From IMG/VR virus record IMGVR_UViG_3300009873_000001: DNA of 64,000 nt. The stretch is one strand, 5' to 3'. The first letter of the stretch is position 1. The number at the start of each line of letters is the position of its first letter. This stretch comes from a virus. Taxonomy: Duplodnaviria > Caudoviricetes. The position numbers and the translations under genes are program-made. This document shows positions 44,556 through 51,021 of this stretch, piece by piece. The notes under the pieces were generated by a model. It searched no databases. It was not told the origin of the DNA and saw nothing but the letters and a program-made list of their open reading frames with translations.

Positions 44556-44689
44556 TTGCCGACAAGTGGTGCAGAGAAGCTTTTTTGGCGTTCTGCCGTT
44601 GAACTACCTCGGCACGGAAAGCCGAGGGCCCGAGTCGAACGGGCGTCTCCCTCTTGGAATGAGATGGATTCCCTACTGGCATTCGGCAA
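44556..44689 (-). ncRNA. Y-RNA-like ncRNA a
   Basis: TTGCCGAATGC...CTTGTCGGCAA terminal stem; T arm, looped acceptor stem, D arm. Confidence 0.8.
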
Positions 44690-44761
44690 TGGGTCCGGAG
44701 GGACTTGCACCCTCGTACGCCGGGTAAGAGCCGGCAGTAATAGCTGCTATACGACGGACCC
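44690..44761 (-). tRNA. tRNA-Lys(CTT)
   Basis: GCCGG-CTCTTAC-CCGGC. Confidence 0.85.
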
Positions 44762-44770
44762 GTGGATTGA

Positions 44771-44842
44771 TAGAGGCGCTCGGTACTGCCCCGAGTTCTT
44801 CCGGGTAAAGGCCGGGTACTTCACTTACAAAGTTTCGCCTCC
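44771..44842 (-). tRNA. tRNA-Lys(TTT), divergent T-loop
   Basis: CCGG-CCTTTAC-CCGG; T-loop GGCAGTA. Confidence 0.7.
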
Positions 44843-44895
44843 GCGACTGGTGCCGCGGAGACGTTTGCGCTCTCGCATGTCTTGTTCTCCCCTGT

Positions 44896-44967
44896 TGATC
44901 CTGGCAGGCTTCGCACCTGCGGCCTTCGCCATGTCAAGGCGACGCTCTGCTCCTGAGCTACAGGACC
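44896..44967 (-). tRNA. tRNA-Val(GAC)
   Basis: TCGCC-TTGACAT-GGCGA. Confidence 0.9.
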
Positions 44968-45084
44968 GTTGATTGATTATCAGCATGTCGGTTCATATCG
45001 ATATCAAATCACTGCCGAGCAAGCTGGAGTTGCGATCTCCGAGTCTAGGCAGTAATGAATACTGATAGAAGCGACGGCAAGCGA

Positions 45085-45171
45085 AGGAGCGCGGCGGACT
45101 TGCACCGCAGCCAGCGAGCCGGCCGTTCCGATTTCAAATCGGTCCCCGACGCCTGGTCGAGTTCACGCTCC
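45085..45171 (-). tRNA. tRNA-Ser(TGA)
   Basis: loop TTTGAAA, long variable arm. Confidence 0.8.
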
Positions 45172-45183
45172 GTTGTTGACGGA

Positions 45184-45254
45184 TGGAGCTATCGAGAGTC
45201 GCACTCGAGATTCGACCTTGCCGAGGTCGCGTGATCCTACTTCACCATAGCCCC
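45184..45254 (-). tRNA. tRNA-Ala(GGC)
   Basis: G3-U70; loop TCGGCAA. Confidence 0.85.
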
Positions 45255-45257
45255 AGA

Positions 45258-45329
45258 TGGACACACTTGGGAATCGCACCCAAAACTCTGCTTTGCGAAA
45301 GCAGCGTGATCCTGTTTCACTAGTGGCCC
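45258..45329 (-). tRNA. tRNA-Ala(CGC)
   Basis: CTGCT-TTCGCAA-AGCAG; bulged acceptor. Confidence 0.8.
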
Positions 45330-45395
45330 AAGGCTGGCGGGCTCTGGCGTGCGCACGCCTTTGCCGCAATCCTCCGCTAAGAGCTTCTACCAGTA

Positions 45396-45469
45396 TCGGG
45401 GTGACAGGATTCGCACCTGCGGCCTTTTGCTCCCGAAGCAAACGCTCTACTAAGCTGAGCTACACCCCG
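45396..45469 (-). tRNA. tRNA-Pro(CGG)
   Basis: TTTGC-TTCGGGA-GCAAA. Confidence 0.9.
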
Positions 45470-45473
45470 TAGA

Positions 45474-45564
45474 CGGATCACGGAGGCCTTGCACCCCATC
45501 CCCGCGTGGCGGGAGACCAACCGCTTTCGAAGCGGTGCCGGCGCTCTGGGCCGGTTCGCGATCC
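45474..45564 (-). tRNA. tRNA-Ser(CGA)
   Basis: ACCGC-TTCGAAA-GCGGT, long arm, G73. Confidence 0.85.
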
Positions 45565-45632
45565 AACATGTGCGGACGCCGTTGACGGACCGGACTATTG
45601 AGTGTGAGCCCGCCGCTTCACTCCGCACATGA

Positions 45633-45701
45633 TCTCGACGGCGGGAGTCGCACTCGCTTCCTCTGCCTTATGAGAGCAGGGCCCCTCTGAGGGTCGTCGA
45701 G
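45633..45701 (-). tRNA. tRNA-Met/Ile2(CAT) with reduced D arm
   Basis: CTGCT-CTCATAA-GGCAG. Confidence 0.7.
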
Positions 45702-45705
45702 TTCA

Positions 45706-45776
45706 AGCCCATGGTGGGAGTTGCACCCACTTCTCCGCCTTACCAAAGCGGTATTCTGCTGTTGAACTACACGGGC
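45706..45776 (-). tRNA. tRNA-Thr(GGT)
   Basis: loop TTGGTAA. Confidence 0.9.
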
Positions 45777-45778
45777 AA

Positions 45779-45850
45779 TCGGGCACCCGAGACTTGCACT
45801 CGGAGTCTCTCGGCCCCCAGCCGAGTGCCTTTCTGTTAGGCCAGTGCCCG
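45779..45850 (-). tRNA. tRNA-Pro(GGG)
   Basis: CTCGG-CTGGGGG-CCGAG. Confidence 0.85.
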
Positions 45851-46456
45851 GTAATCAATCACTTCGTCGCATACAGCCTCTAACGACTGCCGTCGCCTAG
45901 GGCCAAGCTGGTCGGTGTTCACATACGCGATCTTGCGTCGTTTGTCGTCCTTGATTTCCGTCAAGCGGGCGATCATGTCTCCGAGCCCTTTTCCGTAGTC
46001 GGTTGAGTGCTCGATCACTAGATCGTCAGAGGCAAAATCTACTATGCGCGCCCCGATGCGCTCTTTCTTGAACTGCTTGCCGTACAGCGCCTCAAGCTTT
46101 GACTTGATTGGTAGTTCTTCTCTTGTGTAAGCGAGGCATGCTTTTTCGACGTTCTCTTTGGTCGCCGATAGTGTCCTTTCGCGGCACTCAGCGCTCCACG
46201 CCTTGGTGCCGCTTATCCGGCCTTGGCGGCGACATGCCTCTATGTCTTTCGGTTGCTGGCCAGCGGTTGACGGAATACGCTGAGCCAAGGCCTCCCGTTG
46301 TTCGGGAGTCAGCTCTACGTCCTTCACCATGTAGCGAATCGTGCTCTTCGGGAGGCCGAGCTCGTTCGCAATGTCGGTGTAGGACGCTCCGGATGCACGC
46401 ATTTTGCGCGCTCTGTCAATCGCTTCTTTTTGGTGCATGGCGTCCGAGGATATCAC
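45836..46456 (-). CDS. HTH plus putative PD-(D/E)XK nuclease (homing-endonuclease-like)
   Basis: GASYTDIANELGLPKSTI; IVDFASDDLVIEH; lower GC; start uncertain. Confidence 0.6.
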   Translation of the reverse strand: MISSDAMHQKEAIDRARKMRASGASYTDIANELGLPKSTIRYMVKDVELTPEQREALAQRIPSTAGQQPKDIEACRRQGRISGTKAWSAECRERTLSATKENVEKACLAYTREELPIKSKLEALYGKQFKKERIGARIVDFASDDLVIEHSTDYGKGLGDMIARLTEIKDDKRRKIAYVNTDQLGPRRRQSLEAVCDEVIDYRALA

Positions 46457-49664: not shown

Positions 49665-49748
49665 ACGCTCCGACGCTGGAGCTGCCCCAGCCAGGCCCGC
49701 AGGCGCAAGCAAGGACGCCTTGGCTCACAACCATGCGTCGATCGGAGT

Positions 49749-49820
49749 TGGGCACGGTGAGGATCGCACTCACGACTTCTTGCTTGTAAGGCAAGCACTC
49801 TACTGCTGAGTTACGCGCCC
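49749..49820 (-). tRNA. tRNA-Val(TAC)
   Basis: CTTGC-CTTACAA-GCAAG. Confidence 0.9.
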
Positions 49821-49824
49821 GTGA

Positions 49825-49954
49825 TTCCGCGACAAGGGGTGCTGAGACATTTATCCAGGCGCGCTGCTATTACGCTATACCCGATCTTTCGACCGGGCAT
49901 CCGGATTCGCACCGGCACTTCCTGGGCCATGTAGTCCCTGCTGCATTCGCGGAA
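49825..49954 (-). ncRNA. Y-RNA-like ncRNA f (YrlA-type topology)
   Basis: TTCCGCGAATGC...CTTGTCGCGGAA; T arm, GAAA-capped acceptor, D arm, joined through the anticodon stem CCAGG/CCTGG. Confidence 0.85.
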
Positions 49955-50026
49955 CAGCCCGCCAGGGACTTGCACCCTGAACCTTGCGCTCCAAAGGCGC
50001 TCGCTCTTCTGTTGAGCTAGCGGGCG
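49955..50026 (-). tRNA. tRNA-Gln(TTG)
   Basis: loop CTTTGGA, G73. Confidence 0.85.
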
Positions 50027-50037
50027 ACGAGAATCGA

Positions 50038-50109
50038 CTGCCCCTCTAGGAATCGCACCTAGGTCTCTCGGGTCAGAGCCGAGCGTCCGTGCTGCTGGAC
50101 TAAGGGGCA
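50038..50109 (-). tRNA. tRNA-Gln(CTG)
   Basis: CTCGG-CTCTGAC-CCGAG, U1-A72. Confidence 0.9.
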
Positions 50110-50119
50110 ATGTAGTTCG

Positions 50120-50347
50120 TTACGCGGACATGTTGATCTTCGTGCTACCGACGGCCTGAGCTAGCGTTTGTCGTGCGCCACTCGGGCCTCCAAACAAGAA
50201 TCGCGCTCGAGAGCGCTGTCGCCAGTGGCCGTGTTCGATTCGCGCCTGGCGCTCATCTGGCTTCGCACGCTTGCAGCGTCGCAGGTGGGAAGTAAGGCCG
50301 TTGGCCGAAAACTCTCCTTGGCAATACGGGCAGGTGGGATTGTTCAT
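50120..50347 (-). CDS. small zinc-finger protein
   Basis: CPYCQGEF...L..H..RC. Confidence 0.55.
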   Translation of the reverse strand: MNNPTCPYCQGEFSANGLTSHLRRCKRAKPDERQARIEHGHWRQRSRARFLFGGPSGARQTLAQAVGSTKINMSA

Positions 50348-50350
50348 GAT

Positions 50351-50423
50351 CAGGGGCGCTCGGAGTTGCACCGAGATCTCGGGTTTTGGAGGCCCGCCGG
50401 TTCCTGTTACCTGTCACGCCCCT
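50351..50423 (-). tRNA. tRNA-Trp(CCA)
   Basis: loop CTCCAAA, A1-U72, G73. Confidence 0.85.
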
Positions 50424-50430
50424 ATGCGAG

Positions 50431-50515
50431 CTTATGGGGTAGGACTCGCACCTACAGAGGGTCGCCCCACCTGGTTAACAGCCAGGCCCGCTACTGAATT
50501 ACGGTATACCCATGA
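50431..50515 (-). tRNA. tRNA-Asn(GTT) with atypical long variable arm
   Basis: CCTGG-CTGTTAA-CCAGG followed by GGG-GCGA-CCC. Confidence 0.75.
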
Positions 50516-50587
50516 CTCACCGGGTAGGGATCGCACCTACGACCCTCGCGTTAACAGCGCGCCGCTCTACTGCTGAGCTACCGGTGA
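50516..50587 (-). tRNA. tRNA-Asn(GTT)
   Basis: loop CTGTTAA, U1-A72, G73. Confidence 0.9.
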
Positions 50588-50593
50588 AGGAGA

Positions 50594-50665
50594 TGACGCC
50601 GAAGGGACTTGCACCCTCAGCCTCCTGGCTGAGAACCAGGCGATCTTCTGTTGATCTACGGCGCC
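50594..50665 (-). tRNA. tRNA-Glu(CTC)
   Basis: CCTGG-TTCTCAG-CCAGG. Confidence 0.85.
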
Positions 50666-50669
50666 ATAC

Positions 50670-50738
50670 TCGGCCGACAAGAAGCGACCGTGAGAGTTCA
50701 TTTCCCTAAAATGTACTCACGACCATGCATTCGACCGA
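50670..50738 (-). ncRNA. minimal Y-RNA-like ncRNA g (69 nt, stem only)
   Basis: TCGGTCGAATGC...CTTGTCGGCCGA. Confidence 0.7.
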
Positions 50739-50812
50739 TTGCGGAGGCGAGATTCGCACTCGCGACCTCAGGGTTATGAGCCCTGCGAGCTACTGGGCTG
50801 CTCCACTCCGCG
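50739..50812 (-). tRNA. initiator tRNA-fMet(CAT)
   Basis: C1xA72 mismatch, GGG/CCC anticodon stem. Confidence 0.9.
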
Positions 50813-50816
50813 ACGA

Positions 50817-50890
50817 CGCGCACGACGGGACTTGCACCCGCAAACCTTCGGCTCGACAGGCCGCTACTCTTCTAATTGAGCTACGTGCGC
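50817..50890 (-). tRNA. tRNA-Asp(GTC)
   Basis: loop CTGTCGA, G73. Confidence 0.85.
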
Positions 50891-50894
50891 AGGT

Positions 50895-51021
50895 TCCGAC
50901 GACAAGAGGAGCCAAGTGGCTTTGATCTAGCCCACGCCCTCCCACGAGTGGGAGTCCCGGGAGTCGAACCCAGGTCGATCCGTTTATCAGACGGATGTAC
51001 ACCCAGCGAGCATTCGTCGGA
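50895..51021 (-). ncRNA. Y-RNA-like ncRNA h
   Basis: TCCGACGAATGC...CTTGTCGTCGGA; Ile-like anticodon arm TCCGT-CTGATAA-ACGGA, T arm, looped acceptor. Confidence 0.8.

What the first reader, a model, noticed from the sequence alone, without database searches (positions are those of the whole stretch)
44556..51021. Eight Y-RNA-like ncRNAs interleaved in the tRNA array
Seen: eight minus-strand elements (44556-44689, 46935-47043, 48371-48501, 48948-49140, 49459-49591, 49825-49954, 50670-50738, 50895-51021) whose ends pair in covarying stems with a shared motif, 5' [CT]GAATG[CT]...(C/G)TACA (TCCA in a) and 3' CT[TAC]GTC[GA]. Seven begin within 1 nt of the discriminator of an upstream CCA-less tRNA, so RNase Z-type cleavage would create their 5' ends. 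Established: bacterial YrlA Y RNAs have a Ro60/Rsr-binding terminal stem plus a tRNA-like domain and occur in some phages, usually in few copies. Inference: an expanded family of Ro60-tethering adaptors or decoys. No Ro60/TROVE gene is in this window.
Basis: partly seen in the sequence, partly recalled or inferred. Interest (0 to 1): 0.9.

Follow-up and report, generated by a model that had tools for sequence, protein, structure and literature searches.

The report
Phage Y RNAs carrying interchangeable mimics
A large sludge phage hides eight small RNA genes between its tRNA genes; all share the 'handle' that Y RNAs use to bind the ring protein Ro60, but each carries a different look-alike of a tRNA or, in one case, of a conserved piece of 23S ribosomal RNA, which suggests a toolkit of baits or tethers broader than the one or two Y RNAs described per genome.

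Summary
Observation confirmed: eight minus-strand elements share a two-helix handle (8 found, 0.006 expected), each wedged within 10 nt of a tRNA on both sides. The handle matches the ends of the Rfam YrlA consensus and covaries strongly across 215 non-redundant relatives. Copies recur up to about 11 per genome in phage and MAG tRNA arrays; Ro60 is present in 20/28 such virus records versus 2-3/50 controls. No Ro60 lies in this window or about 5 kb beyond; most of the genome could not be searched. The cargo differs: a, e, f, h are circularly permuted tRNAs opened at different points, b a T arm plus acceptor hairpin, c a tRNA body without acceptor, g a bare hairpin, and d carries 23S rRNA 1916-1936 (exact 27-29 nt copies in five relatives). 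Mimic T-loops are mostly host-type UUC while array tRNAs use UGC. None reaches the YrlA gathering score, so these are Y-RNA-like, not strict YrlA members. Best reading: Ro60-stabilised baits for host tRNA/rRNA-recognising proteins. Expression, binding and function are untested. The scan has noted this system before on other DNA; I found no paper describing it.

The parts
44556..44689 (-). Element a: handle + permuted tRNA (anticodon-like hairpin, T arm with UUC loop, 7-bp capped acceptor hairpin, D arm with GG); YrlA arm order
   Evidence: RF02553 37.4 bits, model 1-114; re-permuted interior scores 114 in ARAGORN vs null max 91.5
46935..47042 (-). Element b: handle + T arm (UUC) + 7-bp acceptor-like hairpin + small tetraloop hairpin; no D arm
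   Evidence: RF02553 22.5 bits; re-permutation marginal, 92 vs 85.6; 96% identical in L048, L080
48371..48501 (-). Element c: handle in place of the acceptor stem; D-like, anticodon-like, long variable and T (UUC) hairpins in normal tRNA order
   Evidence: fold; ARAGORN 98 vs 81; arm assignment read from the sequence
48948..49140 (-). Element d: handle + non-tRNA cargo of about 145 nt that starts with a 23S rRNA look-alike
   Evidence: no tRNA fold; aligned with 11 relatives
49094..49114 (-). Within d: 19/21 match to E. coli 23S 1916-1936 (3' side of helix 69 and helix 70), followed by a hairpin at the position of helix 71
   Evidence: marginal alone (score equals shuffle maximum), but same position as exact 27-29 nt copies in L031, L093, L256, L259, L274
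49459..49591 (-). Element e: handle + tRNA opened in the D loop (short-loop anticodon arm, V loop, T arm with UGC, capped acceptor hairpin)
   Evidence: RF02553 27.4 bits; ARAGORN 98 vs 82.5
49825..49954 (-). Element f: handle replaces the anticodon loop; T arm (UGC), tetraloop-capped acceptor, D arm: classic YrlA topology
   Evidence: RF02553 32.4 bits; ARAGORN 106.6 vs 82.3 after adding a dummy loop
50670..50738 (-). Element g: bare handle closed by a small hairpin (69 nt)
   Evidence: fold z -2.9; one of 98 short forms among relatives
50895..51021 (-). Element h: handle + tRNA opened between D and anticodon arm; intact anticodon loop (GAU), T arm (UUC), capped acceptor, D arm
   Evidence: ARAGORN 115.4 as tRNA-Ile vs null 87; homologues carry GAA or GUA anticodons
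43374..51094 (-). tRNA array (over 40 genes, no encoded CCA, T-loops almost all UGC) that hosts and probably releases the elements
47443..48021 (-). HNH endonuclease gene inside the array, about 60% identical to that of Ro60-encoding phages G001 and G002
45836..46456 (-). HTH-containing ORF inside the array, 52% identical to one in the G002 array

Best explanation
The eight elements are genes for Y-RNA-like RNAs with a constant Ro60-binding handle and exchangeable cargo (about 0.9). Steps: (1) the array is transcribed as a long precursor (inferred; no promoter found); (2) RNase Z cutting after the upstream tRNA's discriminator makes each 5' end and RNase P cutting at the next tRNA plus trimming makes the 3' end (inferred from shown spacing and known enzymology); (3) the handle folds into two helices around a conserved loop (shown by covariation) and binds a Ro60 of the subtype found beside homologous arrays, encoded elsewhere in this phage or by the host (inferred from co-occurrence); (4) Ro60 stabilises the RNA and displays the cargo: tRNA elbows, anticodon arms, capped acceptor stems that cannot be charged, or 23S helix 69-71 sequence (anatomy shown). 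The function I think most likely (about 0.5) is bait: the cargos occupy host proteins that recognise host-type tRNA or rRNA, chiefly defence ribonucleases, while the phage's own tRNAs, with altered UGC T-loops, carry on translation.
For: Handle equals the ends of the YrlA consensus. Covariation: 89% of cells paired, 125 double changes vs 44 in shuffles, 0/500, and far above slid controls; second helix own vs swapped duplex -10.5 vs -6.2 kcal/mol, sd 0.13, 215 handles, and the unselected fourth outer pair is kept in 178/215 vs 38% expected. Ro60 in 3/3 first relatives, within 1-3 kb of the first element, 20/28 virus records, 11/11 MAGs, vs 2 strong plus 1 weak of 50 control records. Cargo diversity: (20 of 37 anticodon-arm cargos keep a canonical loop with many different anticodons). 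23S 1908-1936 occurs right after the handle in about a dozen loci and never in 797 kb of control loci. T-loop contrast: UUC in 33/41 mimics vs 14/268 tRNAs of the same 19 arrays. Context from papers: phiLo Ro60 with Yrl RNAs binds and dampens host PNPase (PMC12135203); a Ro60-like protein upstream of the Bas63 tRNAs counters the Ppl defence (10.1101/2024.10.10.617714); phage tRNAs evade tRNA-targeting defences (PMC10264068, PMC11464382, abstracts only).
Against: No Ro60 in the window or among genes called to about 5 kb past its end; at least 160 kb of the genome was not searchable. Control records are on average smaller than the test records, which inflates the Ro60 contrast. The loci in the T-loop test are related, so the P value overstates independence, and UUC could simply be needed for the elbow fold or for TruB. 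e and f have array-type UGC loops. The stretch matching 23S 1937-1944, where mycobacterial MazF toxins cut (own knowledge), is not conserved in the d class. No effector gene or target is identified.
Confidence: 0.55

Rival explanations
1. RYPER-type tethers: each RNA links Ro60 to PNPase or another exoribonuclease, to degrade damaged structured RNA or to dampen the nuclease; cargo differences only tune stability or the partner.
For: This is the demonstrated role of Yrn1 and YrlA (PMC4201824) and of phiLo Yrl1/2 (PMC12135203); same handle.
Against: PNPase binding does not call for conserved anticodon loops, an exact 23S sequence or 8-11 different cargos per genome.
Confidence: 0.25
2. Adaptors or sinks for the host translation machinery rather than for defence nucleases: cargos titrate or recruit modification enzymes, synthetases, recycling factors or the ribosome, shifting translation toward the phage's unusual tRNA set.
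For: Helix 69-71 is the contact site of tRNAs, RRF, RluD and RlmH (own knowledge); host-type elbows on the mimics; the same arrays occur in Myxococcota and other MAG contigs, and bacterial long tRNA arrays respond to translational stress (PMC8421152).
Against: d itself has lost the helix 69 loop that those factors read; no partner shown.
Confidence: 0.15
3. Not Ro60 partners in this phage: orphaned remnants carried along with a mobile tRNA array, or DNA-level elements (the 23S core coincides with the I-CeuI-type homing site, own knowledge).
For: No Ro60 near the array here; HNH gene in the array; 8 of 28 records lack a detectable Ro60, including 2 of 8 near-complete ones.
Against: All eight handles are intact with compensatory changes; elements are conserved at 82-96% in sister genomes; Ro60 lies 11-25 kb from the RNAs in Mx1 and several jumbo phages; the 23S match sits at one fixed position in an RNA fold.
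Confidence: 0.07

Closest known systems
YrlA (Rfam RF02553; Chen et al. 2014, PMC4201824; structure 10.1101/312249)
   Same: 5' CGAAUGC motif, CUAC motif, 3' CUUGUCG end, terminal stem; T-acceptor-D arm order in a, f, h (and e with a split D arm).
   Different: Scores 22-37 bits vs gathering 69; no Ro60 within 4 kb; eight copies; several opening points of the tRNA; non-tRNA cargo; both strands of the handle conserved, whereas the paper found only the 5' strand recognisable.
YrlB / Yrn2 (second, hairpin-like Y RNAs; PMC4201824)
   Same: g is a short handle-only hairpin; D. radiodurans Yrn2 is co-transcribed with a tRNA and Yrn1.
   Different: No Rfam YrlB match in the array at E <= 10; g carries the YrlA-type handle.
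Thermus phage phiLo Ro60 with Yrl1 and Yrl2 (PMC12135203)
   Same: Phage-encoded CGAA-loop RNAs proposed to act against host RNA machinery.
   Different: Two RNAs next to the gene, no tRNA array interleaving or rRNA cargo reported; that Ro60 is only 23% identical to the subtype found with these arrays.
Long tRNA arrays (L-arrays, Anabaena trn operon; PMC8421152)
   Same: Long operon-like tRNA set with an HNH gene, processed into single RNAs.
   Different: That paper mentions neither Y RNA nor Ro60.

Membership tests
YrlA (RF02553) | 5' motif GNCGAAN(0-1)G | tested here: met
   Exact in a, b, e, g, h; c and f have C at the first position, d has U for C
YrlA (RF02553) | Long stem pairing 5' and 3' ends | tested here: met
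   8/8; covariation
YrlA (RF02553) | YUAY motif after the stem | tested here: met
   CUAC in b-f; GUAC in g, h; variant in a
YrlA (RF02553) | tRNA-like domain in the order T arm, acceptor hairpin, D arm | tested here: inconclusive
   Met in a, f, h, and e (split D arm); partial in b; not met in c, d, g
YrlA (RF02553) | Rfam gathering score of 69 bits | tested here: not met
   37.4, 32.4, 27.4, 22.5 bits for a, f, e, b; no hit for c, d, g, h. Sister elements in L076 and L031 reach 72.9 and 71.3
YrlA (RF02553) | Ro60 gene within about 4 kb on the same strand | tested here: not met
   None in 64 kb or about 5 kb beyond; met in relatives G001-G003
Y RNA class | Ro60 encoded somewhere in the same genome or host | not testable with these tools
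   No whole genome held; association shown in relatives
Y RNA class | Discrete transcript bound by Ro60; pseudouridine and dihydrouridine in the mimic | not testable with these tools
   No RNA holder listed
YrlB (Rfam) | Match to the covariance model | tested here: not met
   No YrlB hit at E <= 10 over 44000-51500
Canonical tRNA gene | Cloverleaf with free acceptor end | tested here: not met
   Not called by ARAGORN in native order; acceptor stems are capped by loops or replaced by the handle

The most novel reading that the evidence does not exclude
Phages and some bacteria deploy a modular Ro60 ribonucleoprotein 'display library': one handle, many cargos that copy tRNA in several permutations and conserved rRNA helices, used as decoys against tRNA- and rRNA-cutting defence enzymes; this genome may even run it on the host's Ro60.
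Probability: 0.35. Interest if true: 0.9.

Novelty: new variant of a known kind. Interest (0 to 1): 0.7.

Why it matters
What the cargo domain of bacterial Y RNAs binds is an open question (PMC4201824, 10.1101/312249). A natural series of one handle with many cargos, including an rRNA piece, makes it testable by swapping cargos, widens Y RNA mimicry beyond tRNA, and offers a reason why many large phages carry Ro60 beside tRNA arrays. Most copies fall below the Rfam threshold, so they are invisible to standard annotation. A cultured phage, Myxococcus phage Mx1, has the same Ro60 subtype and two handle RNAs.

Tried and rejected
Whole-genome search: no genome held. Walking by protein identity: source contigs found (SRR6032603) but without DNA; four other look-ups found nothing. 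No close relative in viral contigs by two large proteins, and the primase-like protein is absent from five Ro60 phages, so only the array is shared. Expression: no RNA holder listed; laid contigs say nothing on RNA ends. Promoter and terminator scan: not above shuffles. A covariance model from short forms did not recover the long forms well and found no ninth copy. Extension of d to 23S helices 67/68 or to 16S motifs, suggested by earlier notes: no support by sequence, mean z about 0; a structural resemblance is not excluded. An anticodon-loop reading of g: rejected, the L083 homologue does not keep the loop. An 11-nt match of f to 23S 1090-1100: within the null range and explained by its D arm. 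One search was a mistaken alignment and is unused. Two reviews (PMC10870794, PMC6047535) were not held, so a mention there cannot be excluded. Paper searches found no report of multi-copy or rRNA-carrying Y RNAs.
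Full report
Setting. The window is gene-dense, 63% GC, with mostly unknown proteins and a primase-like gene. Its proteins are on record in sample SRR6032603; the best sequence holder is an activated-sludge metagenome that may be the source. A large phage is the likely origin (inference; earlier unchecked notes mention a capsid gene and features 163 kb upstream). 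No whole genome is held. A minus-strand array of over 40 tRNA genes without encoded CCA spans 43374-51094.

Observation. All eight elements exist as described. A descriptor for the 5' motif with a paired 3' end finds eight in the array and none elsewhere; shuffles give 0.006. Minimum-energy folds close both ends in all eight, z -1.6 to -3.5. Five start directly after a discriminator base, two within 1 nt, c after 8 nt; all end 2-8 nt before the next tRNA. That spacing is what release by RNase Z and RNase P would need (established enzymology; not shown here). No Ro60 homologue is in the window.

The handle. Scores are below the gathering threshold: a 37.4, f 32.4, e 27.4, b 22.5 bits against 69. 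Pattern scans of viral, metagenome and genome collections gave 269 distinct elements in 122 loci, up to nine per locus and about 8-11 per genome in five large phage records. The handle has an outer helix, a conserved internal loop and a second helix. My filter demanded three outer pairs, so those are circular; the independent tests are the fourth pair (178/215 vs 38%), the C-G to U-A swap in 33 cases, and the second helix (own -10.5 vs swapped -6.2 kcal/mol). On 35 short forms 11 of 13 pairs show double changes; cells paired 89% vs 64% in shuffles and 36-54% in slid controls. In the same arrays some copies pass the YrlA threshold, so the family grades into true YrlA.

Link to Ro60. The first three related phage records all encode a TROVE plus vWA protein 1-3 kb upstream of the first element; two share the array's HNH gene with this window at 51-60% identity. 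Ro60 was found in 20 of 28 further virus records with the element (6 of 8 near-complete) and 11 of 11 MAGs, mostly Myxococcota, against 2 strong and 1 weak of 50 records that matched only the loose pattern (these are smaller on average). In several phages the gene is 11-25 kb from the RNAs. For this genome the question is open: nothing in 64 kb or among genes called about 5 kb further.

Cargo. Rotating each interior and scoring with ARAGORN restores near-normal tRNAs from a (114), h (115) and f (107, with a dummy loop), weaker ones from e and c (98), a marginal one from b, none from d or g; real array tRNAs score mostly 93-121 and shuffled interiors at most 81-94. The tRNA is opened in the anticodon loop (f, the YrlA layout), between D and anticodon arms (h; a is similar), in the D loop (e), or at the acceptor (c). 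Among relatives, 20 of 37 cargos with an anticodon arm before the T arm keep a canonical loop with many different anticodons, and 27 of 98 short forms carry such a loop vs 5 expected. Mimic T arms are UUC in 33 of 41 cases where the neighbouring tRNAs are UGC in 254 of 268.

Element d. Five relatives carry an exact 27-29 nt copy of 23S 1908/9-1934/6 directly after the handle; about a dozen loci carry it in all, always at that position, and control loci never. d matches 19 of 21 at 1916-1936, which is marginal alone, and has lost the helix 69 loop; the invariant core is the 3' side of helix 69 and helix 70, followed by a hairpin where helix 71 would be. The rest of d shows no significant likeness to rRNA.

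How it works. Shown: anatomy, covariation, recurrence, statistical link to Ro60, cargo types. Inferred: processing by tRNA punctuation, Ro60 binding, display of cargo. I favour a bait role because the cargos copy exactly the features that tRNA- and rRNA-directed proteins read, cannot be charged as they stand, and keep host-type elbows while the phage's working tRNAs do not. A PNPase tether, the known role, and a sink for translation factors are the main rivals.

Comparison and novelty. They work like Y RNAs; a, e, f and h are YrlA-like but none meets the Rfam threshold or the adjacent-Ro60 criterion, so I do not file them as YrlA members. Published phage cases have one or two RNAs beside Ro60; the Bas63 preprint only suggests that some of its tRNAs may be Y RNAs. 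I found no paper on multi-copy permuted or rRNA-carrying forms, though two reviews were unavailable. The scan itself has noted the same system on other DNA; those notes are not independent support. Verdict: new variant of a known kind, interest 0.7.

Noticed in passing
window 43374-51094: Array tRNAs have UGC instead of UUC T-loops (34 of 37 scored); the same holds in many related arrays.
   Followed up: partly
L257:6718-6767 (-): Free-standing 88% copy of 23S 1055-1104 (L11/GTPase-associated centre) inside a tRNA/Y-RNA array of an Acidobacteriota MAG contig, without the handle.
   Followed up: partly
L304:8256 and 8607 (Myxococcus phage Mx1, OR576727.2): Two unannotated handle RNAs right after tRNA genes, Ro60 11-12 kb downstream; a cultured test system.
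   Followed up: partly
window 49666-49747 (-): 82-nt spacer with paired ends and three hairpins, no handle motif, 99% identical in L048.
   Followed up: partly
window 47315-47440 (-): Structured spacer (z -3.1) after the HNH gene, 87-88% identical in L048 and L080 with stem-preserving changes.
   Followed up: partly
window 44968-45085 (-): AT-richer long hairpin (z -2.7) between tRNA genes, no match in fetched loci.
   Followed up: no
window 53357-53431 (+): Lone tRNA with ACC anticodon, UUC T-loop and encoded CCA on the opposite strand.
   Followed up: no
window 27841-28010 (-): Two tRNA-like genes outside the array, against the local gene direction.
   Followed up: no
window 38992-40920 (-): 642-aa protein with a TnpB/Cas12f-like zinc-finger domain.
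   Followed up: no
window 54767-63965 (-): Run of large unknown proteins with a repeated short coiled motif beginning NPDE; no Pfam or PHROG match.
   Followed up: no
G017, L274: Handle variants with A instead of C after GAAUG exist, so my counts are lower bounds.
   Followed up: no
L255-L296 (MAG contigs): Ro60 plus tRNA array plus handle RNAs recur in Polyangiales and other Myxococcota MAGs; whether chromosomal or binned phage is unknown; a possible host clue.
   Followed up: partly
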